From the human T2T-CHM13v2.0 reference genome, Homo sapiens, in the NCBI RefSeq assembly GCF_009914755.1, contig NC_060927.1: a stretch of 64,000 nucleotides of DNA; one strand, 5' to 3'. A program made the position numbers and the translations under genes. The notes beneath the pieces were generated by a model that was given only the letters and a program-made list of their open reading frames with translations, ran no database searches and was not told the DNA's origin. Shown here in pieces: positions 10,050 through 47,547 of the stretch (position 1 is the stretch's first letter; every line of letters starts with the position of its first letter).

Positions 10050-18390
<8,341 letters not shown>

Positions 18391-18419
18391 TCAATCTGCA
18401 TTTCTTTTTTAAAAGCATT

Positions 18420-19150
18420 ATTTTTAATTGATAAATTAAAATTATATGTAATTGTGTACATTGTCTTATGAAATATATATACATGTGGAATGGCTAAATT
18501 GAGTGAGTTAACGTATGCATTACTTCATATATTTATCATTTTTTTCTGTGGTGAGAACACTTAAAATCTATTCTCTTAGCAATTTTGAATACAATACATT
18601 CTAATTAACCATAATTACCATACAATAGATCCCTTTAATTTATTCCTTCTATCTAACTGAAATCTCCTATCCTTGGACCAACTTCTTCCCAACTTTCTGA
18701 CCCTGTGCCCCACCCACCACCTCACCAAGCTCCTGGTAGTCACCATGTCACTTCTACTTCTATGAATTCAAATCTTTCATGTTCCACAAATATGTGAGAT
18801 CATGTGGTATTTGTCTTTCTGTTCCTGGCTTATTTCACATAACACAACGTCCTCCAGGTTCATCCACGTCTTCCCAAATGACAGGATTTCCTTCTTTTTT
18901 ATGGATAAATAGTATTCCATTTTGTATGTATATACCACATTTTCTTTATTCATTCATTTGTTGATGGACACTTAGATTGATTCCAAATCTCGGCTGTTGT
19001 GAATAAAGCTGCTGGGAACATGGGTGTGGTCTTTGACATACTGATTTCATTTCCTTTGGCTATATACCCAGCAATGAGATTGCTGGATCATATGGTATTC
19101 TATTTTTAATTTTTGGAGGCACTTCCACACTGTTTTCCATAATAGATATT
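18420..19150 (-). mobile_element. L1MA 3' end
   Basis: GTGGTGAGAACACTTAAAATCTATTCTCTTAGCAATTTT; GATGGACACTTAGATTGATTCC. Confidence 0.8.
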
Positions 19151-21334
19151 CTAATTTAAGTTAATGTAAATTAGGAGCTTTGTGTTTCTTACCCATCTTT
19201 GTATTTCCAGTGTCTGGCCCCCAGCAGTCTGTCAATCTTTAGTTGTGGAAAGAAAGAGGGAGTGGAAGGAATTGGTGAGTTTCTATTGTTATACCGTTTG
19301 GGATTTCATTCCCTCTATCAAGTGAGTTATGAAAGTATTTCTTTTAAATTCATATGATATTTTATCCCCCAAGAGAAATTCTTGTAAATGCAATTTCCTC
19401 ATCTTTCTACATAACCTTAAATAAGAAAAGAGGAGTGTGGGCCAGGATAATATGGGAGGGAAAGGTTTTAATGGAAGATTAGGGACCTCGGGGACCTACA
19501 CTAACAATTGTGGAATGATTTAAACTTGCAGTTTGAAAGCCTTTTGCAATTGTTACAGCCACCAGATTAGTTAACATTATTTCTTATCTCAATTATTTCA
19601 ACAGTCTCCTAGATTGTCTTCCCACCATTAGTTTTTTTTCCTACCTCCTTTCACCTTGCACATCATTTCCACAAAGATAACTCATGAAAAAAAAAGATTG
19701 TGTCACTTGCTAGTTTGAAGACCTTGACTGGCTACACATTGTTCACAAAAGTAAATAAAAAAGCCTTGAGCAAGACATCAAATACCCCTTCTAGCAGGTT
19801 TTCAAACATTAAGGAAGACATTGTTTCAAACTCTTACTTTTTTCCAGCTCTCCTCCCTTCTCATTGTTGTGTGTACTGTATACAGTATCTTTCTTCATAG
19901 CACATATTTTCATTGCTATTGTGGTAAACTGCCTTCAAGTGTTTTGGTGGAGTGATAGGTGCAAACAAATTAAGTCTTCATAACGACTATTGTGTCTGTT
20001 TAGACTCATCAGCTGGGATGGGCACTGGCTAGTCATTCATTAACAGGGTAATAATATTGTTGTACTGGTCATAAACCACTTTAATAGGATTAAGGAGCCA
20101 ACCAGGTACTCTGCCAGGAATCTCTCTTGTCATATCTGAGATAATTCCATCATCCGTGATTAGTGAATTTGCATTTAAAGTCTGCTCAGTATGTTCTTAC
20201 AAACAAGTGGCTATGTTTCTCACTCCTCAATTTGCAAACATAGTGAGATAGTTAAGTCACTATTCCCAGAGAAGTACAGGAGCAAATAGAAAAGAAGTGA
20301 AAGAGGGGGAATGAGAATAACAAATCAGAGGTCTTTTAAAGATCATGATTCAAGACTGTCTAGCTCAAACTCCCACTTGAGGCAGGAACTCCCTCTGCAA
20401 TGTGTCTGCCAAGTTGCCCCAGCTTTTCTTGATTAATTTAAGGGCTAGGAAAGCAGATTAACCTTCATAGTATGATAATAATAATAATAATAATAACTAT
20501 TATTAATTATTTCACTGCATTAAAGCTCTAGTAGTTGATATTGTTATAATCCTGTCCACTCTTTGACCCCCAAAGATCCTTTTCCATCCTGAGCTGAAAT
20601 CTTTGAAGGATTCCATCCACATGAAACTTGGTCTTTTTATTTCCCTCTGGTACCCCAAAGCAAAGGTCTTAATCCTCTCCTGAATGATGTCACTACTGTT
20701 CCTTTAAGAGCTCTCATGCCTTTCTCTGCCTCTCTGTTGCCATGGGGTCTCCTCAGGTGAACATCCCTGCACCATCCATCATTCCTTACAAAACCTAAGT
20801 TCCACAACCACATTGCCCTAAATGGCTTCCTTTGAACCCCTCTAAAATATGGTGTCCATACTAATAAAAATGTAAATGAAAACAATTTAAAATGACAAAT
20901 TGGCAAATGTTTTTAACCAGTAATTCTCAATACTTGGGAGAGTGAGACGAGATTTGTTCAACCTTTCTTGAATGTAATTTGTGTCTCAAGAATATTACAA
21001 ATATTATTACTACTTCACCCTGTACATTTCCTTATAGGAATCCATTCTTAAGAAATAATAATTGTGGGATCAAAGATTTTTGTGTAATGGTGTTTTTTAC
21101 ACTATTTTGCTTAAATATTCCATTCTGAACTGCTTTGTTAAGGTATAACTGGTATACAATAAACTGCACATATTTAAAGTGACAATTTGATAATTTTCTT
21201 TTTTCATTGTGGCAAAATATACAGAACATAAAATTTACCGACTTGATAAATTTTGACATATTGGAAACCTTCCTTTTTGCTCCTTCCTCCCATCATGCTC
21301 TAGACAACCACTGATCTACTTTCTGTCATGCTAT

Positions 21335-21510
21335 TTCCTTCCTTTCTTCCTTCTTTCTTTCCTTTCTTTCCTTCTTTCTTTCTCTTTCTTTCATCTTTCT
21401 CTTTCTTTCTTTCTCTTTCTTTCTTTCATCTTTCTCTTTCTTTCTTTCTTTCTCTTTCTTTCATCTTTCTCTTTCTTTCTTTCTCTTTTTCTTTCTTTCA
21501 TTATTTCTTC
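21335..21510. repeat. (TTTC/CT)n pyrimidine microsatellite at an Alu tail
   Basis: Seen directly. Confidence 0.9.
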
Positions 21511-21802
21511 TCTTTTTTGAGGCAGGGTCTCATTCTGTTGCTCAGGCTGGAGTGCAGAGGCAAGGTCTTGGCTCATGGCAACCTCTGCCTCCCTGCTTCA
21601 AGCGATCATCTCACCTCAGCCTCTGGAGTAGCTGGGACCACAGACATAGGCCACCACGCCTGTCTAATTTGTGTACTTTTTTTTGTAGAGACAAGGTTTC
21701 CCCCATGTTGCCCAGGCTGGTTTCAAACTCATGTCTTCAAGGGATCTGTCCACCTCGGCCTCCCAAAGTGCTGGGATTACAGGCATGAGCCACCACCCCT
21801 TG
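21511..21802 (-). mobile_element. AluJ
   Basis: Diverged Alu dimer. Confidence 0.85.
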
Positions 21803-22340
21803 CTATTCTTGTATTTCTGCCTATTTTTGCTTCATATAGTTTGAGGCATATATAACTTATTAGGTGTATATAACTTAGAGCTGTCATATCTTCCTAATGC
21901 ATTGAACTTTTTATCATTACAAAATATTTCTATTTTTATTAATGTTTTTAAAGTCTATCTTGTTTAGTATTAAAATATAATCTTATTAGCCTTCCTTTGT
22001 TTACTGTTCATATGGTGTTTATTTTTCCATCCACTTATACACAATCTTTATTTGTCTTCATATTTTAGGTGCTTTATTGGTAAACAGCATATACCTGTAT
22101 ATGCATTTGTGTGCATGTGTGTGTGTGTGTTTTATCTACTCTGACAATCTGTCTTTTATTTGAAGTGTTTGGTTTATTTACATTTAATGTAATTACTGAT
22201 ATATTGCTGTTTAAACTTACCATATTACTCTGTGCTTCCTATTTGCTTCATCTGTTATGTGTTCCCTTTTCTCTCCTTTATTAATTTCTTTTAAATTTCA
22301 TATTTTTGCCTATTCCATTTCCCCCTTAAATTAGCTTGGT
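21803..22340 (-). mobile_element. Old L1M (L1MC/ME) fragment
   Basis: TTTACATTTAATGTAATTACTGATATA, CTTGTTTAGTATTAAAATA L1M-like motifs. Confidence 0.55.
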
Positions 22341-22344
22341 AGCT

Positions 22345-23684
22345 GTAGCTGATACCTTGCATCATATCCTCTTATCCTACTTCAGATTTCTGCTGCGACT
22401 GTAGTAGAGAGCTCCTTCTGAGTGCAGCTTTACCTCAGGTGAACAGTATCTCATTTCCAGCACTCAATATGTATTTTTCACTTTCAGTCCCAGGGAATTC
22501 TCTGATGGCAAAAGGGAGCAAGTGCCCTAACCCTTAAAGTTTCGCAGAAGCAGTTGCTTCCCCTCTTCTGGAGGAGACTAATCTCATTTTCCCGGTAACC
22601 ATAAAAAAACTCCCTCAGATGGCTGCTTCACAGGGCGATATTCACCCTTCTTGAGATTAGCTCATGCTATATGTCACTGCCTACAGACCAACAGCTTAAG
22701 AGGAGAAATAGTCTTCACCAAGATTAAATATCTTGCTTTCCAAAAGAATTTCAGGGCCCAGCTAATATGAATCAGCAGGAACCAGGAGAACATATGTGAG
22801 TATTGGAGTATATGTGGTGAAACATTGACCAGACAGGGAAGAATTTATCAACATGGTAGCACTCTCTTCTGACTCTGAATTTAGTAACCTGGAAAGGACA
22901 TTTGGGGTCTATACTAGTAGCCTGCTGGAATGACTCCTTGAAGCTTGGGCATGATAAGGATTTACAATAAAAGAGGTGGTGTGGTGGCTTATGCCTGCAA
23001 TCCAAGCACTTTGAGAGGATTGCTTGAGGCCAAGAGTTTGAGACCAGCTTGAAAAATATAATGAGACTCCATATCTACAAGAACATTATAAAAATTTAGT
23101 TGGGCATGGTGGTATGCACCTGTGGTCCCAGCTACTTGGGAGGCTGAGGTGGGAGGATCACGTGAGCCCAGGAGTTCAATGCTGCTGTGAGCCACTGTTA
23201 TTGTGTCACTGTGCTCTAGCCTGGGTGGCAGAGCAATACACTGTCTCTAAAAAAAATACAAAGAAAAAAAGGTGGAAATGCCAGATCTGCCTTGGCAGAA
23301 TATTGAGGGAGGGAGGATCAGAGGGCTTGGGGAGGTAGATTTATTATATGAGACTAGAGATCTCATCCCTTGATTATGTTGCCCAAGAGAACCCAGAGTA
23401 AACTGAATCCATTGCAATCATAAGGAATTCATTAGTAAAGTAGTAACGCACTTGGTGTTTCTGAGCACTGGTGACCATCCACTATTTAACAATAGGAGAT
23501 ACTGCCACAGTGCTGGGCTCCCTAAAAGCAATGATAAGATTTCAGAATATGAGAGTGCAGGTGAGGATAAGCTGGACTTAATTACTGTAATGGGATGCAG
23601 GGTCAGAGTACCAGTAGTTACCAGAGTACTTAGTGCCTTGGCAGGCAGGGATCTGTGGTGATGGCTAACAGACCATGGTGTTTC
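22345..23684 (+). mobile_element. Degenerate ERVL (LTR16/HERV16-like LTR plus gag remnant)
   Basis: AGGGATCTGTGGTGATGGCTAACAGACCATGGTGTT reads RDLW*WLTDHGV, like the ERVL gag motif DLWxWLIxHGV. Confidence 0.45.
22974..23270 (+). mobile_element. AluJ
   Basis: Alu dimer with A-rich tail. Confidence 0.85.
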
Positions 23685-24168
23685 TGTTAAGAACTGTGAA
23701 GGTTCTGAGATTTTTCCCTTACATGTAAGCTAACAAACTAGTCTACCACAGTGTTGTGGATGATGACAAAGGACAAGAGACTCTTGCGTCAGGGACAAAA
23801 GGTGGTTTGTTATTCATAGTCATAGCAGGAGCCAGATTATCAGCATTCGCACTGGTTCCCAGAATACCAAATCCTACAGGATGACATGGTGAGGGCCAGT
23901 TGATATGTAAACATGCAGCAGGTTTCTGAGCTTAGAAACTTCCAATATTTTATAATGCTTGCAAGCAAACCTTTCCAACTTCTGCCCTGAAATAAGACAT
24001 TGTCTTTATTTTTTTAAAAATGCCCTCTCCTCTGGAAGGAGGCATTATCTTTATTTTCCAAGGCTGTTTGCTCTACCTTCTTGAGCTGATAGTCTAAGAA
24101 AAGGCTCTCTGTGTCTCTGTTCATAAGATATGCAGAAACCTGAGACATCAGTGAATTGTCTCCTAACA
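23685..24168 (-). mobile_element. LTR40-like (ERVL class) 3' LTR
   Basis: Minus strand starts TGTTAGGAGACAATTC..., ends ...TTAACA; preceded by purine-rich AAAACAAGGG. Confidence 0.7.
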
Positions 24169-24702
24169 ATATTGACCCTTGTTTTTATAATACTATCTTC
24201 ACTTGGGGCAAATTTTCCCATGAATATGCCACTCCATCAGCCAATCTGATTAACCTGACCAATAGAGCTGGGACCAAGTCTCTTTAATTTGTCCCATACA
24301 GCATTTAATTAAGGCTACTATCAACAGGACTCCAAATATCAGGAGTCCCAGAATATTGACTTCAAATCTACCTCCCTTTCTGCCCAGGCTCCTGGATTAA
24401 ACCAGCTGACCAAATGCCACAAACCATCAGAATCTATCTTTGAAAGCCAAATGGCTTTTTCTTTAGGTTTCTGTGTTGACCTTTCCACTAGGCCCAAAAA
24501 GGCATTAATCTTGATTCAATAGGATGTATGAGTGATGGTACAATAGGAGTGATGGTACAGACTCTGACTTGGTCTGTAAGGAGAAAGTCTGTCATCTATA
24601 ACAATCCTGGCTAGTGAGTTGAGACTGACCTGAATGCCTTTAAGGACCAAAGTGGTGTCATTGATGACATCATTTAAAGTAAGGGGTAAGTCTTGCATCA
24701 TC

Positions 24703-25005
24703 TTTGTTTTTTTTTTTTTTTAGAAAATGTCTTATTCTGTTGCCCAGGCTGGAGTGCAGAGTAGGGTGATCTCAGCTCACTGCAACCTCGCCTTCTGGGC
24801 TCAGGTGATCCTCTCACTTCAGCCTCCCAAGTAGCTGGGACTACAGGTGTGTGCCACCATGCTCGGAAAACTTTTTGTATTTTTTTTGTAGAGATGGGGC
24901 TTTGCCACATTGTCCAGGCTGGTCTCAAACTCCTGAGCTCAAGCCATCTGCCTGCCTCAGACTCCCAAAGTGCTGGAGTTACAGACCAGAGCCACCACAC
25001 CTGGC
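24703..25005 (-). mobile_element. Alu (J/S)
   Basis: Dimer with poly-T. Confidence 0.88.
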
Positions 25006-25065
25006 CCATCATTTCTAATTATACAACTTCCATTGTTGGAAAAACTACCAGGAGGGTGTGCATAA

Positions 25066-25248
<183 letters not shown>

Positions 25249-25367
25249 TAGTCTCATTTTTTAAAGAGATCTCCTTGGTGATCTGAAAGTTTCATAATCT
25301 GCTGGTAGTGTTTGTTTAAATGCTAGTAGGTCTCTTCTGACAACTCCTAAGATGCAACTCACTATGG

Positions 25368-25671
25368 TTTTTGTTGTTGTTGTTGTTTTAACAGACAGGA
25401 TCTCACTCTGTTGCCCAAGCTGGAGTGCAGCAGTGCTATCATAGCTCACTGTAGCCTTAACCTCCTGGACTCAAGCAACCCTTCTGCCTCAGCCTCTGGA
25501 AGAGTTGGGACTACAGGTGAATGCCACCATGCCAGGCTAATTTTTAATTTTTCGAGGAGATGGGGTCTTGTTATGTTGCCAAGGTTGGTTTTGAACTCCT
25601 AGCTTCAAGAAATCCTCCCTCCTCAGCCCCCCAGAGTGTAGGGATTATAGGCATGAACAACCAGGCCTGGC
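25368..25671 (-). mobile_element. AluJ
   Basis: Dimer with (GTT)n tail; CACTATG on both flanks. Confidence 0.85.
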
Positions 25672-26884
25672 CCACTATGTTTTTGGGAGGGAGGCAAGTT
25701 AATGCCAAACTTCTCAAGAAGGATGGTACTGGAGATGTGCATGGCTCCCCTAGAAAGACCAGGATTGTCGACAATTGCTGGGGCCCTCAGGGGAACCCAC
25801 ATCAGTGGGGTTGGAGGAAGGACTACAAATGACAGTTCTTCCAGTGTGGCTTCCTGGCTAGTTGGTAAGTCTTGGGGTTCTTAGTTAAGTTAGAAAAATT
25901 GAAGCTGGTTGTTTTTGGAAAGACTGTCCGAGGGTAACCAGTCCTATCTGTCCTGTCTGTCCATGCCACTGGCTGAGTGGCATTTGTTTACCCCCAAGAG
26001 TGACTTCTCAGTCCTGACTCTGATGATGATCATCAGACTCCGATGAAGACATTCAGAGGTGTTGACAGGTGCTTGGTGTGGGAAGTATAGGAGTTGGGGC
26101 CATCCTTTGATGTTGCCAACAGTCTTCTTGGTAAGGTTAAGGGAATGGTTATCAAATTGTGGTAAGAACTATCGGATGGGGTGGCAGAACCACAGTCAGT
26201 AAAATTTAAGGTGCTTGCAACAGTTTGGGAGAGCGTCATTAAGGCATTTTCTCTGGGGAGGAAGGCTCTAAGGCAGTTCTGAAAGACAAAGTATCACTAA
26301 TGTCCCTCTTTCCTCTGTATATCACAGGGTCTAATGTGTATCTTCCTCATGTGCCAGGCTTGTTGCTTTCCTTTCACCCCAGTCGTCCCCTATTCACACC
26401 AAGCCCTTTTGTCCAGAGGGCCAGGTGCAGGAAGGATAGTACATTTTGATAAGTTTATAGAGATCCCTTATGTCCACTCCTTGGGCCCACACAGGATACT
26501 ATAGGAGGACTCGGTGAGCAGTGTACTCAACTCAACTCTTAAGTGTTCATTACCTTTATGATCTAGGACAAGGTCTGTCCAACAAGAGATTGCAGGTGGC
26601 TGAACCAGAATTAAGTTTGAATCCCCTAGCCTTTTGTCCAGCCTAACTCTGAAGGTCACACCAACCCAGCTGGCCTAGTGTTACCATTAAGAGAAAGAAT
26701 GAAACATCATGCCCAAGAATGGTCAGGTCAGGATCCCAAATTTTCCTAACTCTCTGCTTCTTTCATCTGGAACATGACCCAGGAAGCAGCTGAGCAAGAT
26801 GATCCCTTTCTGGAGAGAGTTACATCCAGTGACCAAACTAAATTGTGGTGGTCAGGAGGAGGTGAGGGAGATAGAGTCAGAAGT

Positions 26885-28314
26885 ATTTTTTTAAACTTTT
26901 TCTTTCGAGCTAATTGTAGATGCACATGCAAGTTGTAAGAAATAATACAGAGAAAGCCTGTGTACTCATCACCCAGTTTCCCCCAATGGTAACATTCTGC
27001 AGAATTACATTATCTCAATATCTCAACAATATCCCATGGATACAGTCAAGCTATTAATAAAAATTTCCATCACCACAAAGATCCCTCATGTTGTTCTTTC
27101 ATAGCCAAGCCTACTTGCCTCCTACTCCACCATCTCCTTAATACCTGGCAACCACTTATCTGCTCTTTATTTGTATAATTTTGTAACTTGAAGGATGTTG
27201 CACAAATAGAATTACAAAGTATGTATGGAAAGCATCCAGTCTTTCACATTCAGTATAAGGTCAGCTGTAGGTACTTTGGTAGGTGTTCTTTATCAAGTGT
27301 GGAAATTCCCTTCTATTCTTCTTTTTCTGAGCGTTTTTATGGTGCTGAATTTTGTCAAGTGCTTGTTCTACATTGATTGATATATTCATGCGATTTTTCT
27401 TTTCTTTAGCTTGTTCATATCAGGAATTGCATTGATCGACATTTGTTTTTTTTTTTTTTTTTGAGACAGAGTTTCACTCTGTTGCCCCATCTAGAGTGCA
27501 GTGGCAACTGCAGTCTCAACCCCCCAGGCTCAGGTGATCCTCCCACCTCAGTCCCACCTGTACCTGAGACTACAGGTGTGTGACACCATGCTGGGCTAAT
27601 TTTCATATTTTGTGTAGAGATGGGGTTGTGTCCTGTTGCCCAGGCTGGTCTCAAACTTCTGGGCTCAAAGGATTCGCTGGACTTGGTCTCCCAAAGTGCT
27701 GGGATTACAGGCATGAGGCACCACGCCTGGGTTGATTGACTTTAGAATTTTGATTTTGCATCCCTGAAAAAAACTCCACTATGTTGTGGTGTATAATTAT
27801 TTTTATATATTGCTGAATTCTGTTTGGTAATACGTTGTTAAAGATTTCTGCATCTTCACCTTGTTACAGCCTGGAAAAGGCGGGAGTCTAGGATTTCTAC
27901 TCAGCCTCTGTTCATGTAGGAGTGAGTGGGGCCAGGGTTTTTCCTGTGGTGTTTGGCTGAAGTAGAGCCATTACTGCCTAAAAGTTTTTCTGTCTTTCTA
28001 GGCTTCCCATTTCCTGGTCCTTGACTAGAGAGAGCAGGGTTCGTTGAGACTTTTTTGTCTGTGCCTGTTGTCATTTTTGGGTTGCTGGCTTCTTCAGCTC
28101 CAAGTTTGGGGCAAAGAAACAACAGAAAGCAAGCCCAGGGAACTCAGCATCATGTCATTCCTTGGGTTCTGAGATTTCTAGCTCATCTGTCTTCTTCTCT
28201 CAACCTCTTGGAGTTTCCAATGTTGGAAAATATATGAAGTCCAGGATTTTTTGTTGTGCTTAGCAGGAGAAATGGAATACTGATGTCCACTCCATCTTCC
28301 TGAGAGCAGAAGGA

Positions 28315-28345
<31 letters not shown>
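26885..28345 (-). mobile_element. L1MC/L1MD fragments containing an Alu
   Basis: GCAAGTTGTAAGAAATAATACAGAGA...CCCAGTTTCCCCCAATGGTAACAT is an L1MC-type 3' end. Confidence 0.65.
27443..27731 (-). mobile_element. AluJ
   Basis: Dimer with small internal deletion. Confidence 0.85.
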
Positions 28346-28695
28346 GTGATTTTTGGTCAATATCAGATGCCTGTTGATGGTAATGAGTGTGGAGGGTTAA
28401 TCAATACCTTGACTATCAGCCCACTGTTGAGCGGCTTCTGTGATAAAAAGTGCAGCATTGTGAGATTACAAATGATTCAGAAAGCTGAACACATGACACA
28501 TTACTTTCAAGGGCTACATTCAAATGTTGCTCCTTTGTGGGTTTCCTTGACTGCCAGAAGGATTGGAGTGTTGTGGTTGCACTCATGTAGTGCCACTTTA
28601 CTTGCTGAGCAGGCTCCTGCATTTGTGGGGGTCTTACAGAGTTATGATAACATTGCAGTCAGGTCCATTGAAATTGAGGTGTCTGACTATCCAAT

Positions 28696-29094
28696 TGTGG
28701 CAGACAGACTTGTAGGTGGCCCCTGTGATCTCTATTCTCTGGCTTTTCAGAACCGTGGATGGCCATTGGGAGCCTAAGAGCAGTCTTTCGGAGCTAAGGG
28801 CAGCCTCTAGCTCACATCTAGAAAGAAACTGGGGAGTCAGTCCTAGAGCTGCAAAGAAATGAATTCTGTCAATGACCTGAGAAAGCTTGGAAATGATTCT
28901 TCTCCAGTAGAGCCTGCAGATGACAATGCAGCCCGGCTGACACCTTGATTGCACCCTTGTGAGAGCATAAGCAGAGGATCTAGTTTGGCCATGCCTGGAC
29001 TTCCAACCTTCAGAAACTGTGCAGTGATATACATGTGTTGTACAAAGCACTAAGTTTGTGGGAATCTGTTGCGCAGCAATAGATGACAAATACA
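28696..29094 (+). mobile_element. MLT1 solo LTR
   Basis: TGTGGCAG...CTAAGTTTGTGGGAATCTGTTGCGCAGCAATAGATGACAAATACA; near-perfect 5-bp TSD CCAAT/CCAAC. Confidence 0.8.
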
Positions 29095-31254: not shown

Positions 31255-31390
31255 GTATATATATACTATATAGTATATATGCACTATATAGTATGGTATA
31301 TATACTATATACATGCTATGTATACACTATGCTATATGGTGTATATGCTCTATGTATGCTATATAGTATACTCTATATACGCTATATATT
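31255..31390. repeat. TA-rich low-complexity tract
   Basis: Seen directly. Confidence 0.85.
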
Positions 31391-31727
<337 letters not shown>

Positions 31728-35050: not shown

Positions 35051-35509
35051 CAATTCCTTTTTTATTGTGGTAAAATATATAACATAAAATTTACCATCTT
35101 AACCATTTTTAAGTATACAGTTCAATGGCATTAAGTACATTCACATTGTGTGTAACCATCACCACCATCCATCTCCAGACATTTTTCATCTTCCCAAACT
35201 GAAACTTAATACTCATTAAACAATAAATCCCTGTACCCCTTACTTTGTCAGCTTCTGGAACCAATATTCTACTTGCTATTTTTATGAATTTGACTATTCT
35301 AGGTACCTCATATAAGTGGAAGTATATAATATTTATTCTTTTATGTTTAGCTTATTTCATTTAGCAAAATGTCTTCAAGTATCATCCATGTTGTGGTATG
35401 TGCCAGAATATCCTTCCTTTTTAAGGCTGAATAATATTTCATTGTATGTATATACCATCTTTTGTTTTTCCATTCATTCATTGGTAGAGGGACTTAGGTT
35501 GTTTTCACC

Positions 35510-36319: not shown

Positions 36320-37268
36320 CCATCTTTTGGCTACTGGGAATAATGCTGCGATAAACATTGGTGTACAAATATCTATTTAAGTTTATGCTTTCAATTATTT
36401 TGGGTGTATAACCAGAAGTGGAATTATTGGATTACCCCTTATTTTTAATATTTTGAGGAACCATCCTACTGTTTTTTCACAGCAGCTGCACCATTTTATT
36501 TTACATCCCTACAGCAGTACACAAGGGTCTCAATTTCTCCACATTCTTACCAACACTTGTTATTTTCTGTTTTTAATGTAAAAAATAATAGACATCCTAA
36601 TGTGTGGGAAGCATCTTGTTGTGGTTTTGATTTGCATTTCCCTAATGTTTAGTGATGTTGAACACCATTTCATGTGCTTATTGGCCATTTGTAAATCTTT
36701 TGCCCATTTTAAAATTAGGGTTTTTTTTTCGTGTGTTGTAGAAGTTCTTTACATATTCTGGATATTAATTCCCTATCAGATATATTATTTGCAGATATTT
36801 TCTTCCATTCTTCGGGTTACCTTTCCACTGAGTTGGTAGTGTCTTTTGATGCATAACAGTTTAAAATGTTGATGGTCTAATTTCTTTATTTTTTTCTTTT
36901 TTGCCTGCACTTTTGGTGTCATATCTAAGATATGATTGCCAAATTCAATGTCCTGAAGCTTTTTCCATATGCCTTCTTCTGAGAATTTTATAGTTTTAGC
37001 TCATATGTATAAGTCTTTGTTCCATTTTGAGTTAATTTTGTAAATGGCATAAGGTAATAGGTGTTCACCTTCATTCTTTTGCATGTGGATAGTTAAGCAA
37101 TTCATTAATAATTTTTATCAACGATTATAATGTTTGTCTCTATGTAGATATCATAAGCATAGACATAGCCATAGTTTAAAAATATTAATTCATTCTTGAC
37201 ATCATTTTTCTAATTATATCTAAAGTACTGATTTTTTCTTATAGAATTACTAAAAAATTCTGTACTTG

Positions 37269-37566
<298 letters not shown>

Positions 37567-38039
37567 TTATAGCTTTTAGTATTTCCAAGAAAGAAAAACT
37601 ATTCTTGTGGTCAAATGGCATTGGTGGCTGATAGCTATTTTTTTTAAAACTATTTTTACCTTTTTGTGGTGTTTAGAATTAAAAAAGCAACATCCCCATG
37701 TTGCAAAAAATTGAAATAGATTGTAGAGTCAAAAGTAATGGTTCCCCTTCTATTTACATGGTTTCTTCCCTTCCACTACTCTCCCCACAATTAAACTTTG
37801 TTAATAGTCTGCTCTATATTTTTCTAGACCTTCTCCAAGAGTCCATTCACAGGTATAGATTTAAACATAAATATTATTTTAAAATATACATGGGACCATA
37901 TTTTATGCATTGTTCAGACCTTGTTTTTTTAAAAAGTCTCAGCGGTATCAAATACACACATCTCAGTCTGTCCACTGAGACCCAGAGATCTCGTGAACAT
38001 ACTGTGTCCTGGAGAACAGACACTAGCACTCAAGTGAAA

Positions 38040-38146
38040 GAATGTTCTTTTTCTATAACACGTAACAGTGGTATTGGGTTACATTTGTTGAATGAATGTT
38101 CTTTTTCTATAACACGTAACAGTGGTATTGGGTTACATTTGTTGAA
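38040..38146. repeat. Perfect 54-bp tandem duplication
   Basis: GAATGTTCTTTTTCTATAACACGTAACAGTGGTATTGGGTTACATTTGTTGAA twice. Confidence 0.97.
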
Positions 38147-38551
38147 CGAGGCCTGTTTGCCCTGTTCCCTCTCTCTGGACTCTTGGCTCCTCTCTGTGAG
38201 CCATCAGATTGACTGTTTCCAGTCTCGTCTGACTTTCAATGTCCCTGCCAAGGACTCTCACATTCGTCTGTCTCAGAGAAAGCTCGGAAGACAACAAATC
38301 CTTTCCCGCATCCACCCATCACCGCTTCTGAGCAGCCTGGGCCCCTCTGGTGCCATCAACAATCTTGAAGTGGCAACAGGTCCAGAGGCAAATGACTCCT
38401 TCCTTCCTGCTGTTTTATGCAAAGATTGCTATCTTCTGTGGCTTAGTTTATTTCTCCTTCAAGAGAAATTTAAAAAAAATGACCAGCAAGGTGGTGCTTT
38501 CCACAGCAAGGAAGTGGGTGGTATGCCTGCACCTTTCTCCAGAATTCCTGG

Positions 38552-38809
38552 AATTCCAAAGGCTTAAAAACATACACAATATTTTATTAAATTCTTTTTA
38601 GTAGATGAGAAAATTGATTTTTAAAAATTATGCTTATGGAAATTGATGTTTAGAAAGGTAAACTGTACTACTTGTAAAATTCCACAGGCTTAAAAACACC
38701 TACACAATATTTTATTAAATTCTTTTTAGTAGATGAGAAAATTGATTTTTAAAAAATACGATATGCTTAAGGAAATTGATGTTTAGAAAGGTAAACTGTA
38801 CTACTTGTA
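38552..38809. repeat. ~126-bp imperfect tandem duplication
   Basis: AATTCCA.AGGCTTAAAAACA...GGTAAACTGTACTACTTGTA starting at 38552 and 38678. Confidence 0.95.
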
Positions 38810-38914
38810 TAGTAAGCAAAGAATATGAAAATTTGTCTGATTTTAGTTCTCTTTTCATTCAACATTCCCGTTGCCTCCGAAAGATAGCACATTGCCCTTG
38901 AGAATTCTACAGAC

Positions 38915-39093
38915 TAGTCCTGTGGTACCTAACCAATGTACAGCTGAATTGCCTGTGGAATATTTAAAAAATACACCCATGCTTGTCCTGCCCCTGGAGA
39001 TTCTAATTCAGAAGGTGTGGAGTGAGGCCAAGGCATCTGTGAAAAGCTCCCCAGAGAGCTGATGGTTGGCCTGGGTTGAGAACCATGGATCTA
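38915..39093. mobile_element. MER5A-like hAT element
   Basis: GAGATTCTAATTCAGAAGG...GGGTTGAGAACCATGG. Confidence 0.65.
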
Positions 39094-40092
39094 GTGGGAG
39101 GAGTTTCCCAGCTAAAGTTCCAAACCCTCACAGGTGAGCTGGTGTCCTTCATTGCTGATGATGCTTAGAACTGGCCTCAAGCAGTCACAGTTGGAGGAAA
39201 GCTCTACCTAAGGTCCTAATTAAAAACACATAAATTGGATGGAAACTCCTTCTTCTTGGGATGTTTACAGAGGTTACCTTTTTATCCTGTTGCCTTATTC
39301 CCATGAAAACTCACTTGTCTAACTAAGCTGAAAGGTGGAATCTTTCTCACCAATATTTGTAGAGCTCCTATTAACTTCACTTTTTTGGGAGCCAAACTTC
39401 CCTCAGTGCCGCAGTTATTTCGTGGTAGTAACATAGGTGTTTAGGAGACATCTGAATTCCCTCTCAATGACCTAAAAGTATAATTAGTCCATTTTCTGAC
39501 ATGAGTCAACAACTAGGGTTGCCACATAGACCCAATTCTTAGTAGAGACTGTGTCTATCTCGGACTCAGAGTTGACCACTAATTACATTTCAGTAAAAAA
39601 ATATTACTTTTAATTTATCTTAAATTTCACAGAGGAAAAAGAAACCAAGGTGAAATTTAAGGAATTTCTGAACTTCAGACAAATATCTCTTGAAACAAGA
39701 CACGTTAGTTCCTTAAAGATTCCTCTAAAAAATATCAAACTGTTGGGATTATTAACTACTCTCATAAAATTCAGAATACATTCTTCATATCCAAATAGAC
39801 CTACATTTTATATAACTACCCTCACACTTTAAATTAAAAAAAGAAAAAGTTCCAGATCTGACTTTGATATGTCTAGGTATGGATCTTTTTTTTTTTTTTA
39901 AACACCTTTTCTCCTGATATGTCCTTTCAATTTGAGGATCCATGTCTTTCTTCATCTCAGGGAGTTTTTCACCAATTATCTAATTTTTTCTTTCTCTCTC
40001 CTTACAAACCAGGCATAATTCAGACTAATGATCATGGCAGAATGTTAAAGGCAGATTAAAAGAAACCAAAATTGAGAGCTACATCATAATAA

Positions 40093-40443
<351 letters not shown>

Positions 40444-40579
40444 CTAAATACTTTATATTAATGAAAATTAAGTAATATTAAAAATGTTAGCAAGGAAGAA
40501 AAAAATTATAGAAAATGCTCACAGCAAAATCATGCCATGGCTAAACCTTGGGGATAAAGACCAGAGGAAGACAGAGTGA

Positions 40580-41190
<611 letters not shown>

Positions 41191-43329
41191 TAAGCCTCAT
41201 TTTCCTCAACAGAAAATTGGGCCTGTTTCTCCTTCCTTCTAAATGTCATTGCAGAGGTTTCATGAAGCAATGTGTGTGATGGGACTTTGTCCAATGTAAG
41301 ATACTTTGCAGAAGTGAGTGATTCTGTGACCACAATCTTGCTATGAAGCTTTTTCTTCACAGGAAGATACATGAACAACTAATGACTGAGTGACTGTTGG
41401 TTAGGTTTCAACCTCTTCTCAGGCTTCTTCTTGTTTTACCCTCATGGACAACTTGTCGGGAAGAGGCTATTATTATTCCCATTTTATTGATAAGCCCAGA
41501 GAGGTTAAGTAACTCATGCAAGGTCACACCGTGGTGAAATCAGTATTTAAATACAGGGTAGCTTCACTCCAGTGTCTGAACTGTTAACATTTATGCCATG
41601 TGTAACATTATTTTCAGGAATGAAACAATGTTATTGGTTGCCACTTTTCAGAGAATTGGCAAGTGCTCAGGTTTAATGCAGGTGGGCAGAGGCAGAGGTG
41701 TCACTGGGTGCTCTAGCCTCTGTATCCTGAACTTCCAGCTTCCTCTTACTGTCCATTTGTGATCCTGGGAGAGAGAAACACTGTCTCCTCTGTGCCTGAT
41801 CCACTCTTGTTCAAGTGTCCAGCACCCTTTCCCTGAATTACTGCAAAGACCTCTCAAATTATCTGTGGTAAAGGACCATTTCCCACCCCACCCCCTGAGT
41901 CCATTGTAGCCTTATATTTTTATAAAAAAAAAAAAAAGTCTTGCTTGGATATCGCCACAATGTTAAACTACTTCAAGATATTTAAAAGCCTCTAAACACT
42001 TCATCTCAGTTCCTGTCCTTGTAGATGGTAACAGCTTGCAGACTAGGACTGGTCCACAGGGTGTGGTTGAAATAGCACTGCTGCAAGGGTCTCCTGACTT
42101 TGATTCTTTCCCCGTATAACCTATGCACCACAGAGTGGCCAGAGTGGTTCTTGAAAAATACAACTAAAAGTCACATTGTTTCCCTGGTTACACCCTCCAG
42201 TAGCTTCCTATTGCATTTAAAATAAAATCCAGATATTTACCAACGGCCCAAAAGTCCCTGGGTCATCTGGCCCTGCCTGTATCCACCCGCTTTCATCTCC
42301 TCCCTTGCCCGCTGGATATCTCCAATGCTAATGAAACATAGGTAGGCTTGGGTAAAAGTTGTTTCAAACAGGGAACACATAATAATCTGGGATGTGAGAT
42401 ACACTCTGTTTTGTCCTTTCCTCTACTGGATCAAGCATGGACAAGTGCTTCTATCACTTTCTTTCCAGCAGCGAGAGCCATGCCACTAATTTCTGAATGA
42501 GCAAGATGACCAAAACCAAGTCTCAGAAAAGATTTGTGCAAAACTGTGCTTATGTAGTGTAGCCTGTTGCCTCTCTGGTGAACTCAGCCTGAAGATGCCT
42601 GTATTCTGTTGAAGTCTCATACCTGCTTTTTAGACTCTTTGTTTCCTCCCCCAGAAAATGGGTCTGTCGTGGGTCGAGATGATGGAGGGGTCATTCCAAA
42701 TGTTCCTGAGATTGGAGAACAAAAGGTTGACCGTGTGGTTGTTGTCACAGACTCATTGCTGGGGAGTGTGGCTACCATTGCTGCATTGGTTATTTAATGA
42801 CTGAGGGGGAAACACAAATTTTGGTTAAACAATTTCCTGGTGGGTTTAGTGCTTGCTGCCCAGAGAGCCTCTTGTGTGGAGGCACCCGGGAGAGACACCC
42901 ATCTCACCACGTGCTCTACCATGGCAATGAATGAGAAAGAAGCAGCTACATGGAAAATGGTTCATTTAGCAACAGACAGCCATAGTTTCTAGGAAACTGA
43001 CTTCCCACTGTTCTCCCTAACATCCCCCCAACCCATGACTTTTTAATCCATTGCCTATTCCAATGATTTTTGGACTTTCAGAAGAAGATTTCATTGTCTT
43101 TTGCTAATTAATTGCCATGGCAATGGCAACAATTCTCACATTTTAGTGGCAGGAAATTTATGTTTAATAGAATGGAGAATGTGATGTAGCAAAGTGCGTC
43201 TTTGCCAAGCATCCCAGGTGATTCTGGCATAGGTGGTCCAAGGACCTTACTTTGAAAAACACTGGTTTTAGGATTGTCTGTTCTGTGTAATGATACTGGT
43301 ATTGAGTGCAAAGAGTTTTAAAGAAGTTC

Positions 43330-44090
43330 TGTTTCTGCCCAAGATGGAGTAACAGGGCCAGATTTACCCTTTTGCCTGACACAACCAAAAATGTCAGATA
43401 AAATACATGAAATAATGATTTTTGAAACACCAGTCATCAGGTGATGAACAGCAGTAATCTCTAAGAAATAGGAGACAAAAAGGCGTACACTCGGACTGCT
43501 CCAGCTTACTGCATGGAGAGAATTTCCAGGCTGAGACTCAGGGAAAGGAACTCAAGTGCAATTCAGACTCCCAATTTGAGGAGAAGGTGTGAAGAGGCTG
43601 GGGAAACCAAGGTGGTTAGAGTTCATGGAACAGAGTACCAGGAATGAGAGAGCTGCATGGAGAGAGAGGACCCCGATAACTGCAGAGGGGGCCCTCAAGG
43701 ATTCAGCATCGTACTGACCAGCACCTGTATGTGGGGAAACTACTGGAGACCTGGGGGCCAAGCTTGTGGGGGGAAGAGAACAGAGCCTGGCTCTCACCAA
43801 AGGCTGGGAATATTGCCTGTTCCTTCCAGCCAGACTGGGAAACCCATAATCCACAGGGTATTGGTAGAACAGTCAGGAGGGCCTTGCCTCAGTAGTGGGG
43901 AATAATTAGCAGTCTAGAGCACTGCTCCATATTTGCCTAATAAATCATAAAAAAGCAATTTGCAAAAGTATTAAACTGCATCTAAGTTACTTAAGCTCAT
44001 CCCAGAACAGAGTTCAAGAATATTTATGGGAATAAAAAAAAAATCCGGTGCCAAACAAGGTAAAATTCACAGTATCTGACACCCCAAAAT
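43330..44090 (+). mobile_element. Ancient L1M 5'-region fragment
   Basis: CCCAAGATGGAGTAACAGGG start; AACAAGGTAAAATTCACAGTATCTG. Confidence 0.55.
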
Positions 44091-47000
44091 AGTAATGTAG
44101 TTTAAAGTGGAAACACACCACTCTCCCTGACTGTCCTGGAGGTGAACTTCCATGCACATTTTTGTACCCTTAAAGAGTCCAACAGTTTAAACCTTCAGTG
44201 TAACATTTTATACATAACAATCTAGAGACTGCCAAACCATGGTCTGTGTTGATATTTATCTTGGCTTCTGAGATAGCACTTCCTCTTTCATGTCTATGAG
44301 TGTTTCAGAAAATATTTTTTCTGTGTTTGACACCTTCAACCTTGCCATTGCATTATGGTAAGGTAGATTCAGCTAAGATATTGGCTAATTACATTGTGCA
44401 TCCTAAGAGGTTGGAGCTAAGAGTCGTAGGTAATGGTGATGGTTGGGTGAGATGGGACAAGTTTTCTGAGGTCAATGTATGACTCAGATTCAAAGGCTTG
44501 GAGAGCAGTAAGGACCAAACCAGGCAGGCCAAGATCTTGGACAGGTCTGAGGGGGCTAGCTAAGCCAAGTTCTAGAACCAGAAGCCCTTTGGAACCCAAC
44601 AGGAACATACAGAGAGTGAAGTGAGTAAAGTCTTGTTAGGACTTGGTCAAGACTAAAGAGTCAGGGTTTGTTCATTGGCAGAAGTTGGAGGCTGGGTCAG
44701 AGAGGAGTGTTCTGGGATCATGCATGGACTTACTGCTCTAGAGGTTCATAACTGAGCTCCACAATATGAGCCTGGGATGTACATTCTTCCTCTGAGATTT
44801 GGAAGGTTTTAAATTTGGTTTCCAGGCCTATTTGTCCGATTCTCTCCCATGCCCCAAATTCAACCTGACACTCTGTCATTAGGATGTCCCTAGTTAGACA
44901 CTTGACTGCCAGAACAAACATGTTTTCTTCAGATTGTCTGGCACCTGGGCATTCTTTCCCACTCTGCCTATACAGAAATGTGGCTTTTCTGCATACAATT
45001 TACAAATCTTTTGGCTGCTGGAAAACACTAAGTTTCTTAAAATATTGTAGCCCAGATGAATTTGTGGGAAAGTTCCTACTTGAAGATGATCACAAGATAT
45101 TACTGTTATTTGATAGAAATTTTACCTGCTCCGGGAGATGAGAATGGGACTCAAGGATTAGTCTTTGGGAAAAGTGGAAATGAGTTGATCTTTTAAAGGA
45201 GGGGGTCTTAAAATCACTTTTTCACCTAGAAAGGTTTTCAATAAATGTTCTTGGAGCTCTTTATTTTCATTCCCAATGGCTATTGTACCATGGATTGAGT
45301 AACTAGAGTTGGGATGCAGGGATGAAGAATGGATGCTAGTCAGTGTTGTCATGACCACCATGATGGTCTGGATGGCGAGAACAATTCACTTACAGTTTTT
45401 AATAATGACAAAGACAACAACACTAGAAAGTAGATAGAGTAAGTTTATACTTTAATTTCTTTCAGATCAGTATGGACTAGAGGAGCTTCTGCCCTCTCTA
45501 TGTTTTCCAAAGAGAGAAAAATAGATACAGAAGAGATTAAGAGAGCATAGGAGGGGGCTTCAAGATATTTGACTAGAGACATCTGTTATTCACCTTCTCC
45601 ACAAAAGAGGACCAAAACAGCAACTAGATAAGCACGATGTCAAATAGAGTATTTAAGAGAGAACACAGGAACTCAGCAGGAAAGTGACAGAAAACCTCTC
45701 AGGCATGGAAGGAGAGGAAAGCAAAGCAGCTGGCCCAGCTGAGATCGGAGCCAGGAGAGACTCCTCAGTGCAGGAAAAGGGAAGGGAGAGAGCCCCATGT
45801 TCCACATTTCCACCATGGACTACTGCAATCCTAGCTACAGAGTGCCCTTTGGCTCTCACAGACCCTGAGACTAGTATAGGAAACTTCCTGGAGCCCACAC
45901 GATGGCATTGTCTCAGAGAGGGATTTCACCATGGGTCACACACATAGCCCAAGACTGAAGCAACTGCAGCGTGGTGCCCTTTCGAGAGCCCAGGCCCGAC
46001 AAGACTGCATCTTGCCGTGGAGTCCAACAGCCCATGCATCTCCATATCCCTGGAGCCCCACTGACATCCCCTTACATCTACTCAGATGGTTGCAAAATAC
46101 CAATGACATTCTTCACAGAAATAGAAAACACAATGCTAAAAATTGTATGGAACCAAAAAAGGACCTAAATAGCCAAATCAATAGTAAGCAAAAAGAACAA
46201 AGCTGGAGGCATCTACTACCTGGCTTCAAAATATACCACAGACCTATAGTAAGCAAAACAACATGGCATTGGTATAAAAACAGACACATAGAGAAGTGGA
46301 ACAGAATAGAGAATTCAGAAATAAATCCACATATTTACAGTCAACTGATTTTCAACAAAGGCATCAAAAACATATATTGGGGAAAGGAAACCCTGTTCAA
46401 TAAGTGGTGCTGGGAAAACTGGATATTCATGTGCAGAAGAATGAAACTGTCTGAATGAATAGACCCCTGTCTCTCACTATATAAAAAAAAAAAACTCAAA
46501 ATGGATTAAAAACTTTAAGACCTGAAACTATAAAACTACTAGAAGACAACATAGGGGAAACACTTCAGGGCATTGGTCTAGGCAATGGTATTATGATTAA
46601 GACCTCAAAAGCACACATAACAAAAACAAAAATAGACAAGTGGGGTTATATTAAACTAGAAAGCTTCTGTATAGCAAGGGAATAAACAGAATGAAGAGAC
46701 AAACTTCGAATGGAAGAAAGTATTTTTTAACTATTCATTTGACAAGGGACTAATATCCAGAATATACAACGAACTCCATCAACTTAACAGAAAAAAAATC
46801 CCATCAGATATTTCCCAAAAGAAGACATACGAATGACTAACAGGCATATGAAAAACTGCTGAATATCACTAATCATTAAAGAACTGCAAATCAAAACCAC
46901 AATGAGATATTATCTCACCCCAGTTGGAATGGCTGTTATGAAAATGACCAAAAGTAATAAATGCTGGCAAGGACATGGAGAAAAGAGAACTCTTACACAT

Positions 47001-47547
47001 TGTTGGTGAGAATGTAAATTAGTATAGCCATTATGGAAAACAATATGGGGGTTTCTCAAAAAAATAAATGCAGAACTACCATAGAGTCCAGCAATTTCGC
47101 TACTGGATATTTATCCAAAGGAAAAGAAATCAGTATATCAAGGGGATACCTGTACTCCCATGTTTATTGCAGCACTATTCACAATAGCCAAGGTATGGAA
47201 TCAACCTAAGTGTCTATCAATGAATGAATGAATGGGTAAAGAAAATGTGGTATATAGATATACGATGAAATATTGAGGGATGGAGGAGCCAAGATGGCCA
47301 AATAGGAACAGCTCCAGTCTACAGCTCCCAGCGTGAGTGATGCAGAAGACAGGTGATTTCTGCATTTCCATCTGAGGTACCGGGTTCATCTCACTAGGGA
47401 GTGCCAGACAGTGGGTGCAGGTCAGTGGGTGCGCGCACCGTGCATGAGCTGAAGCAGGCTGAGGCATTGCCTCACTCGGGAAGTGCAAGGGGTCAGGGAC
47501 TTCCCTTTCCTAGTCAAAGAAAGGGGCGACAGACGGCACCTGGAAAA

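What the first reader, a model, noticed from the sequence alone, without database searches (positions are those of the whole stretch)
18391..47277. TMEM45A main promoter and exon 1 sit in a potentially invertible ~29-kb cassette, with a second promoter outside it
Seen: the CpG promoter and exon 1 lie between ~6-kb inverted L1 repeats, while the alternative first exons (56.8-57.3 kb) and the coding exons lie outside. Established: NAHR between inverted repeats inverts the spacer. Inference: a crossover would turn the main promoter away from the gene and leave only the N-terminally extended isoform, acting as a structural isoform switch. The intact TSD and continuous L1MA host around the plus L1 indicate this haplotype is in ancestral orientation (or has inverted an even number of times).
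Basis: inference. Interest (0 to 1): 0.7.

Follow-up and report, generated by a model that had tools for sequence, protein, structure and literature searches.

The report
Inverted L1 pair around TMEM45A promoter
Two dead L1 retrotransposons in opposite orientation do bracket the main TMEM45A promoter, but they are an ordinary, rather poorly matched repeat pair, and nothing found here shows that the segment between them ever flips.

Summary
A minus-strand full-length L1 (10050-18381, split by an SVA at 14564-16722) and a plus-strand full-length L1 (47278-53323) bracket the only non-repeat CpG island in the window (about 29600-30600) and TMEM45A exon 1. The alternative first exons and the coding exons lie outside. 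The plus L1 has a 10/11 target-site duplication and sits in a continuous older L1, so this haplotype is in the ancestral orientation.

The "invertible cassette / isoform switch" reading is geometry only. Good homology covers just the outer 4.5 kb, at 94.6% identity with 247 differences and a longest perfect run of 133 bp. The 5' parts match at 73-89%. Each arm resembles unrelated L1 copies as much as its partner, or more, so the pair has not been homogenised. An apparent 98% tract is a conserved L1 segment.

Four variants are private to the pair. Two lie in one 131-bp identical run and hint at short non-crossover conversion.

No inversion at this place appeared in the four inversion supplements I could search cleanly. 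None of these is a complete panel. L1-flanked NAHR inversions are a known class, and published work puts useful LINE-LINE identity at 96% or more. The verdict is an ordinary repeat pair with low interest.

The parts
10050..14563 (-). Left L1, 3' part (ORF2 and 3' end; the poly(A) tail reads as T8 at 10050-10057). This is the arm of good homology with the right L1.
   Evidence: 4518 columns at 94.58% against 53313-48801; the 3' end sequence; longest open frame 300 aa, so the coding frames are broken.
14564..16722 (-). SVA retrotransposon inserted into the left L1 in the same orientation. Its 10-bp TSD GTATCTTTGT lies at 14554-14563 and 16723-16732.
   Evidence: T-rich tail at 14559-14627, a 37-49-bp-unit VNTR at 15177-16272, and a GAGAGG hexamer array at 16648-16721; a 2169-bp gap in the right arm; the TSD.
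16733..18381 (-). Left L1, 5' part (5' UTR and ORF1 region). It matches the right L1 poorly and carries 128 bp (17509-17636) that the right L1 lacks.
   Evidence: 82%, 88% and 75% HSPs; 300-column windows at 73-89% and the 128-bp gap.
10038..10049 (.). Probable degraded TSD of the left L1: AAGTTACTGTGA here against AAGTGACTCTCA at 18382-18393, matching 9 of 12.
   Evidence: Read by eye. The one-mismatch TSD scan did not list it. Both copies abut the element ends. This is weak evidence.
18382..47277 (.). Spacer between the two L1 5' ends (28.9 kb). It holds the CpG island and exon 1.
29600..30600 (+). CpG island over the main TMEM45A promoter and the start of non-coding exon 1 (30293-30602).
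   Evidence: GC 0.63-0.65, o/e 0.63-0.80; both ATGs in exon 1 run into stops. Exon coordinates come from the hub annotation.
47278..53323 (+). Right L1, full length (6046 bp with tail), in sense orientation within TMEM45A intron 1. Its TSD is GAAATATTGAG at 47267-47277 and GAACTATTGAG at 53324-53334.
   Evidence: longest open frame 555 aa, so the frames are broken.
46518..47277 (+). Older L1 3' fragment that hosts the right L1. It continues at 53335 to about 53441.
   Evidence: 72-73% HSPs; one collinear HSP crosses the reconstructed empty site.
50063..50193 (+). Candidate short gene-conversion tract (partner 13171-13301). It is a 131-bp perfect run holding two variants (50101 C, 50135 G) seen only in these two arms.
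   Evidence: Searches show the run; 0 of 29 relatives of the right arm carry either variant; 1 of 15 and 0 of 15 short stretches from relatives of the left arm; 0 of 12 longer relatives.
56751..57282 (+). Alternative first exons outside the pair (56751-56990, 57136/57207-57282). An ATG at 57238 is open to the exon end.
   Evidence: Hub annotation. GT donors, and 15 codons in phase 0.

Best explanation
Two independently inserted, dead L1PA retrotransposons of different ages happen to lie in opposite orientation on either side of the main TMEM45A promoter. The left one is the more diverged and was later hit by an SVA. The right one is less diverged and lacks 128 bp of 5' UTR. Together they form a potential but weak substrate for non-allelic homologous recombination. 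A crossover in the outer 4.5 kb would invert 34-43 kb and uncouple the CpG promoter and exon 1 from the gene. This haplotype is in the ancestral orientation, and the pair shows no sign of frequent exchange beyond perhaps a few very short conversion patches. It is an ordinary piece of repeat architecture, not a functioning switch.

Shown: the anatomy, the identities, the TSDs and the lack of homogenisation. Inferred: the ages, the low recombination propensity and the consequence of a hypothetical inversion.
For: - Anatomy and identity.
- SVA with TSD.
- TSD and continuous host for the right L1.
- Substrate quality: 247 differences over the 4.5 kb, mean identical stretch 17 bp, longest 133 and 131 bp.
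- No homogenisation: 39 non-self hits to the right arm scored at 95-97% (16402 first-look candidates, 40 scored). The left arm at 94.6% is not among them. The left arm's best other copies are 94-95%.
- Left-right identity is 94.7%, against a mean of 94.4% between the left arm and 29 unrelated copies. The left-right profile follows the left-versus-others profile window by window, including the 97-98% segment at 51199-51797.
- Of the 19 left = right alleles that differ from the majority of the 29 copies, 14 are also carried by copies L010, L014, L012, L016 and others. This is sub-lineage structure.
- Literature: Startek 2015 gives 17005 direct LINE pairs over 4 kb and over 95% identity within 10 Mb. 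It says identity of 97-98% is needed, with 96% the minimum (abstract and section 19). The Porubsky 2021 preprint has 22 L1-flanked inversions in 41 genomes, 21 of 22 above 90% identity, median 97.2%, median size 5.6 kb (passages).
- No entry at the locus in the searchable supplements.
Against: - 94.6% identity lies inside the range above 90% seen for 21 of 22 L1 pairs that did mediate inversions. Lee et al. 2008 report L1-mediated inversions up to 81 kb. An inversion here is therefore not excluded.
- Four variants are private to the two arms: 50101, 50135, 52338 and 53118. They were seen in 0 of 29 relatives of the right arm, and in 0 of 12, 12, 8 and 5 relatives of the left arm. About 1 coincident site is expected if the arms mutated independently. 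This suggests the arms have exchanged sequence at least once.
- My negative literature evidence is thin. The HGSVC3 supplement was cut when stored and its hits were noise. The ape T2T supplement had no text. The Cell 2022 callset is not held. One supplement file of the Genome Res 2026 paper was not searched.
- I could read only one human haplotype and no ape.
Confidence: 0.85

Rival explanations
1. The locus is a real L1-mediated inversion polymorphism, rare or recurrent, in humans or other apes, and the catalogues I could search missed it. Carriers would lose main-promoter TMEM45A transcription from that allele and keep only transcripts that start at 56.7-57.3 kb.
For: - Inverted full-length L1s with 4.5 kb above 90% identity match the architecture of known L1-flanked inversions.
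- Four pair-private shared variants hint at physical exchange between the arms.
- Balanced inversions flanked by 6-8-kb repeats are hard to call.
Against: - No entry near chr3:103.17-103.22 Mb (T2T) or 100.47-100.52 Mb (hg38; my offset relies on a recalled gene start) in the Porubsky 2023 supplements (41 genomes), the Genome Res 2026 inversion table, Lee 2008 or the 2026 benchmark.
- Identity is below the 96% minimum of Startek et al..
- The longest perfect run is 133 bp.
- This haplotype is ancestral.
Confidence: 0.07
2. The arms interact only by short non-crossover gene conversion. Occasional patches of tens of base pairs to about 130 bp are copied between them without ever inverting the spacer.
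For: - Variants 50101 C and 50135 G lie 34 bp apart inside a 131-bp identical run. Neither appears in any of the 29 relatives of the right arm. They appear in 1 of 15 and 0 of 15 short relatives of the left arm and in 0 of 12 longer ones.
- Two more pair-private sites lie in identical spans of 43 and 54 bp.
- Three of the four are transversions, so parallel mutation is unlikely.
Against: - Only four sites are involved, and the reference panel is 29 + 13 copies out of tens of thousands, so rare shared sub-lineage alleles are not excluded.
- With five sites absent from all 29 right-arm relatives, one pair within 34 bp has a rough chance of about 0.15 by clustering alone (my estimate).
- A longest run of 131 bp or more occurs in 13% of uniform simulations.
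Confidence: 0.4
3. The pair is one duplicated segment (an inverted segmental duplication) rather than two independent insertions.
For: Long collinear inverted homology.
Against: - Homology stops at the L1 ends.
- Each element has its own TSD and its own flanks.
- The right one sits inside an older L1 that is continuous across the empty site.
- The 5' UTRs differ, at 73-89% identity with a 128-bp indel.
- Each arm is as close or closer to copies on other chromosomes.
Confidence: 0.01

Closest known systems
Retrotransposon recombination-mediated inversions (RRMI; Lee et al. 2008, PMC2603318; abstract and passages read)
   Same: Inverted L1PA pair on one chromosome with a genic segment between. 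In that study L1-mediated events average 14 kb in human, range up to 81 kb, and have inverted exons of known genes (DOCK3, USP40).
   Different: Those are observed inversions with chimeric elements. Here only the substrate exists, and the single haplotype read is not inverted.
L1-flanked balanced inversion polymorphisms in human panels (Porubsky et al. preprint 10.1101/2021.12.20.472354; passages read)
   Same: Same architecture and same proposed NAHR mechanism. The pair's identity falls in their range above 90%.
   Different: Their median pair identity is 97.2% and their median inverted size 5.6 kb. Here identity is 94.6% and 34-43 kb would invert. The locus is absent from the T2T-based supplement of the follow-up paper.
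LINE-LINE NAHR substrates (Startek et al. 2015, PMC4344489; abstract, methods passages and section 19 read)
   Same: Homology over 4 kb between full-length L1PAs. Their method explicitly classes inverted pairs as inversion substrates.
   Different: The pair fails their 95% identity catalogue criterion and their 96% empirical minimum. Their LR-PCR test of 95 inverted pairs gave inconclusive products.
F8 intron-22 inversion in haemophilia A (recalled, not looked up here)
   Same: Inverted repeats separate the promoter and 5' exons from the rest of a gene when they recombine.
   Different: As I recall, those repeats are about 9.5 kb and nearly identical, and the event is recurrent and pathogenic. 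Nothing comparable is shown here.
Bacterial invertible promoter switches such as fimS or hin (recalled)
   Same: A promoter sits between inverted repeats, so that orientation decides expression.
   Different: Those use short specific repeats and a dedicated recombinase, and they flip at high, regulated rates. Here any flip would be a rare mutation made by general homologous recombination.

Membership tests
L1-flanked NAHR inversion locus | Two elements of the same repeat family in inverted orientation on one chromosome, flanking unique sequence | tested here: met
   10050-18381 (minus) and 47278-53323 (plus).
L1-flanked NAHR inversion locus | High pairwise identity of the arms: 96% or more per Startek 2015; above 90% with median 97.2% per the Porubsky preprint | tested here: inconclusive
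   94.6% over 4518 columns and 73-89% in the 5' 1.5 kb. This is above 90% but below 96%.
L1-flanked NAHR inversion locus | Both orientations exist: chimeric arms with swapped TSDs in some haplotype or species | tested here: not met
   In the one haplotype available, the TSD of the right L1 matches 10 of 11 and its host is continuous. Other haplotypes and apes cannot be tested with these tools.
L1-flanked NAHR inversion locus | Listed in a published inversion callset | tested here: not met
   No matching coordinates in the supplements of PMC10150506, PMC13629690 (one file not searched), PMC2603318 or PMC13721702. PMC12350169 was inconclusive. The Cell 2022 tables and the ape T2T tables were not readable.
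Full-length L1PA insertion | About 6 kb, 3' poly(A), target-site duplication, homology to many genomic L1 copies | tested here: met
   Right L1: 6046 bp, A-tail, 10/11 TSD, 39 non-self hits scored at 95-97%. Left L1: 6164 bp without the SVA, short A-tail, 9/12 TSD read by eye, other copies at 94-95%. Subfamily names were not determined, because no repeat library is on hand.
SVA retrotransposon | Hexamer repeat at the 5' end, GC-rich VNTR, poly(A) tail, TSD | tested here: met
   The Alu-like and SINE-R parts were not tested by homology.
Programmed invertible promoter switch | Dedicated site-specific recombinase with short specific inverted sites and regulated flipping | not tested
   No recombinase search was run. 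The repeats are dead L1 copies with broken frames, and the rest of this row rests on general knowledge. The resemblance is one of geometry only.

The most novel reading that the evidence does not exclude
The pair mediates a real, so far uncatalogued inversion of about 34-43 kb, low-frequency or recurrent, in humans or great apes. Such an allele would remove the CpG promoter from TMEM45A and give a natural promoter-swap allele expressing only the transcripts that start at 56.7-57.3 kb. The pair-private shared variants would be traces of the same ectopic pairing.
Probability: 0.06. Interest if true: 0.35.

Novelty: already known. Interest (0 to 1): 0.12.

Why it matters
If an inverted allele existed, it would be a clean natural experiment on promoter choice at TMEM45A, and one more L1-mediated inversion that touches an exon. 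As it stands, the locus shows how common such potential substrates are. Startek et al. count 17005 direct LINE pairs over 4 kb and over 95% identity within 10 Mb. By symmetry I infer a similar number of inverted pairs. A repeat geometry alone therefore does not predict a rearrangement. The useful outcome here is the corrected anatomy (SVA split, 4.5-kb usable homology, 94.6% identity) and a small, testable hint of short ectopic conversion between the arms.

Tried and rejected
1. The 97-98% identity segment (51199-51797) as a conversion tract: rejected. The left arm is equally similar (97.0-98.3%) to 29 unrelated copies there.
2. The 19 left = right alleles that differ from the majority of the right arm's relatives, as conversion: mostly rejected. 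14 of the 19 are shared with other copies, chiefly L010, L014, L012 and L016, which indicates sub-lineage structure. Only 4 remain private after adding 13 relatives of the left arm.
3. Inverted segmental duplication: rejected on separate TSDs and flanks.
5. Literature dead ends:
   - The Cell 2022 inversion paper is not held, by DOI or by a recalled PMC id.
   - PMC12485790 has no readable supplement.
   - The ape T2T supplement has no text.
   - The HGSVC3 supplement was cut when stored, and the numeric hits shown were unrelated columns.
   - Four papers hold both 'TMEM45A' and 'inversion'. None has both words in its title or abstract, and I opened none (listing only).
6. Two searches failed on term length and were re-sent.
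7. Exon 2 of TMEM45A was not located, so the reading frame of the N-terminal extension across the splice junction was not checked.
8. Subfamily assignment (L1PA3, L1PA4-6, SVA class) could not be made, because no repeat library is available. The age statements are inference from divergence and recalled rates.


Full report
**1. What is there**

A scan for inverted repeats and a blastn of the two regions show a long collinear inverted match. Window 10050-14563 pairs with 53313-48801 over 4518 columns at 94.58% identity (236 mismatches, 9 gap openings, E = 0). Weaker matches follow in the 5' parts: 16716-17431 with 48816-48108 at 82%, 17449-17508 at 88%, and 17648-18381 with 48044-47289 at 75%. 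AT skew changes sign between the two regions, as expected for an A-rich L1 sense strand on minus at the left and on plus at the right.

A global alignment shows that the left copy carries a 2169-bp block absent from the right copy. Tandem Repeats Finder finds three things in that block:
- a T-rich tail at 14559-14627;
- a GC-rich VNTR of 37-49-bp units at 15177-16272;
- a GAGAGG hexamer array at 16648-16721.

This is the layout of an SVA on the minus strand. A perfect 10-bp target-site duplication, GTATCTTTGT, flanks it at 14554-14563 and 16723-16732.

The anatomy is therefore:
- Left L1, minus strand, 10050-18381, 6164 bp without the SVA.
- SVA, 14564-16722, inside the left L1.
- Spacer, 18382-47277.
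- Right L1, plus strand, 47278-53323, 6046 bp.

Both L1 5' ends face the spacer. Both have broken reading frames; the longest frames are 300 aa and 555 aa.

**2.

*CpG promoter.* The 500-bp windows starting at 29601-30101 reach GC 0.63-0.65 with CpG observed/expected 0.63-0.80. They are the only CpG-island-like windows outside repeats. The only other such windows lie in the SVA, and on looser criteria in the 5' UTR of the right L1. They overlap exon 1 (30293-30602, hub annotation), whose two ATGs both run into stops.

*TSD and host of the plus L1.* Its TSD is GAAATATTGAG (47267-47277) against GAACTATTGAG (53324-53334), 10 of 11. I removed the L1 and one TSD copy in a script. The remaining flanks then gave a single collinear HSP to an L1 3' region (68% identity, 1040 columns) that runs across the junction. 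The older host L1 is therefore continuous.

*TSD of the left L1.* Only a degraded candidate exists, 9 of 12, abutting both ends (read by eye; the scan did not list it).

*Exons outside the pair.* The alternative first exons (56751-56990, 57136/57207-57282) lie outside the pair. DUF716-coding exons lie at window-equivalent 96078-96287 and 106509-106649. The exon ending at 57282 has an ATG at 57238 that is open to the exon end in phase 0, 15 codons. This is compatible with an N-terminally extended protein. I did not locate exon 2, so I could not check the frame across the junction.

**3. Quality of the pair as a recombination substrate**

Good homology is confined to the outer 4.5 kb. It holds 247 differences, the mean identical stretch is 17 bp, and the longest perfect runs are 133 and 131 bp. 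The 5' 1.5 kb is only 73-89% identical and differs by a 128-bp indel.

A crossover would therefore have to fall in the outer parts. It would invert 34.2-43.3 kb, carrying the SVA and both L1 5' parts along, and not just the 29-kb spacer.

From recall, not from a call: efficient mammalian homologous recombination needs uninterrupted identity of roughly 200 bp or more. The runs here are shorter than that.

**4. Have the arms been exchanging sequence?**

The right arm has many closer relatives elsewhere. Of 16402 first-look candidates, 40 were scored. The 39 non-self hits are 95-97% identical, and the left arm is not among them. The left arm's best other copies are 94-95% (29166 candidates, 40 scored).

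I aligned both arms with 29 copies related to the right arm:
- left-right identity is 94.7%;
- left versus others averages 94.4% (maximum 94.7%);
- right versus others averages 96.8%.

The left-right identity profile follows the left-versus-others profile. This includes the 97-98% segment at 51199-51797, so that segment is a conserved stretch of L1 and not a conversion tract.

Nineteen sites have left = right differing from the majority of the 29 copies. Fourteen of these alleles also occur in other copies, mostly L010, L014, L012 and L016. Those copies also share the most left-type alleles overall (59, 30, 12 and 10 of 195, against 19 for the right arm), so this is sub-lineage structure.

I then added 13 copies related to the left arm. 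These copies are at least as close to the right arm (94.5-96.5%) as to the left (93.7-95.3%). Four sites remain where the two arms share an allele that no relative carries: 50101, 50135, 52338 and 53118. They appear in 0 of 29 right-arm relatives and in 0 of 12, 12, 8 and 5 left-arm relatives. About one coincident site is expected if the 43 right-private and 94 left-private changes fell independently.

Two of the four lie 34 bp apart inside the 131-bp perfect run at 50063-50193. In 15 short stretches from relatives of the left arm, one carries the 50101 allele and none carries the 50135 allele. The other two sit in identical spans of 43 and 54 bp.

I read this as a modest hint of one to three short non-crossover conversion patches. 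It is not proof. The panel is small, and a longest run of 131 bp or more arises in 13% of uniform simulations.

**5. Ages (inference)**

Assume a star-like history. Others versus others differ by 2.5%, right versus others by 3.2%, and left versus others by 5.6%. This puts about 1.9% private change on the right copy and about 4.3% (including subfamily differences) on the left copy.

With recalled L1 substitution rates, that fits a great-ape-age element on the right and an older catarrhine or ape-age element on the left.

The right copy lacks 128 bp of 5' UTR that the left copy has. That is the size of the 129-bp deletion described for L1PA3 and younger families (preprint 10.1101/429613, passages read). 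I did not verify that it is the same segment.

The inverted arrangement has probably existed for on the order of ten million years without a net fixed inversion on this lineage. This only weakly bounds the rate.

**6. What is known**

- Recombination between inverted L1s is an established source of inversions. Lee et al. 2008 found 49 retrotransposon recombination-mediated inversions between human and chimpanzee. Human L1-mediated events averaged 14 kb, the largest locus was 81 kb, and exons of known genes were inverted.
- The Porubsky et al. preprint found 22 L1-flanked balanced inversions in 41 genomes. 21 of 22 pairs exceeded 90% identity, the median was 97.2%, and the median size was 5.6 kb. 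Recurrence was driven mainly by repeat length, with most recurrent loci having flanking repeats of at least 10 kb.
- Startek et al. 2015 counted 17005 direct LINE pairs over 4 kb and over 95% identity within 10 Mb. They concluded that 97-98% identity is needed for NAHR, with 96% the absolute minimum. Their LR-PCR of 95 inverted pairs was inconclusive.

The present pair is thus of a very common kind and lies at or below the lower edge of the identities that work.

**7. Is an inversion recorded here?**

A full-text search for TMEM45A with 'inversion' found four papers. None has both words in its title or abstract, and I opened none of them (listing only).

Coordinate searches for T2T 103.17-103.22 Mb and hg38 100.47-100.52 Mb gave the results below. 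The hg38 offset rests on a recalled hg38 gene start.
- Porubsky 2023: nothing at the locus in the supplements.
- Genome Research 2026 inversion table: nothing at the locus. One file was not searched.
- Lee 2008: nothing, using recalled hg18/hg19 offsets.
- 2026 inversion benchmark: nothing.
- HGSVC3 supplement: cut when stored, and the hits shown were unrelated numbers.
- Ape T2T supplement: no readable text.
- Cell 2022 tables: not held.

So "not catalogued" is supported only as far as these files reach. No other human haplotype or ape genome could be read with the tools.

**8. Verdict**

The most probable account is two independent dead L1 insertions of different ages that form a weak potential NAHR substrate, in the ancestral state here (confidence 0.85). 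A real undetected inversion polymorphism remains possible (about 0.06-0.07). Short conversion between the arms is plausible (about 0.4) and is compatible with the main account. Interest is low.

Noticed in passing
window 14564-16722 (minus): An SVA element with a perfect 10-bp TSD sits inside the left L1. Its tail and SINE-R end coincide with the RefSeq 'enhancer' feature at 14552-15237 given in the hub annotation.
   Followed up: partly
window 17509-17636 versus 48055: The left L1 carries 128 bp of 5' UTR that the right L1 lacks. This is the size of the 129-bp ZNF93-site deletion reported for L1PA3 and younger families. I did not verify that it is the same segment.
   Followed up: partly
window 47451-47750: The 5' UTR of the right L1 still passes a loose CpG-island test (200-bp windows, GC at least 0.5, o/e at least 0.6), although the element is old enough to have about 2% private change.
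   Followed up: no
window 31450-31640 and 32079-32269: An inverted repeat pair, probably Alu, with 191-nt arms at 84% identity and only 438 nt apart. It lies in intron 1, about 850 bp downstream of the exon 1 donor (I11). Several further Alu-like inverted pairs lie in the spacer (I12-I18).
   Followed up: no
window 18797-19000 (minus): A second old L1 3' fragment lies about 400 bp beyond the 5' end of the left L1. It is inverted relative to the old L1 that hosts the right element (I22).
   Followed up: no
window 47278-53323 (plus): The right L1 is full length and in sense orientation inside TMEM45A intron 1. Its 3' end lies 3.4 kb upstream of the alternative first exons at 56751-57282. I did not examine whether those transcripts relate to L1-driven or read-through transcription.
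   Followed up: no
loci L023-L031 (own genome): Some L1 copies related to the right arm are up to 99.87% identical to one another over 4.5 kb. This suggests very young copies or copies inside segmental duplications.
   Followed up: no
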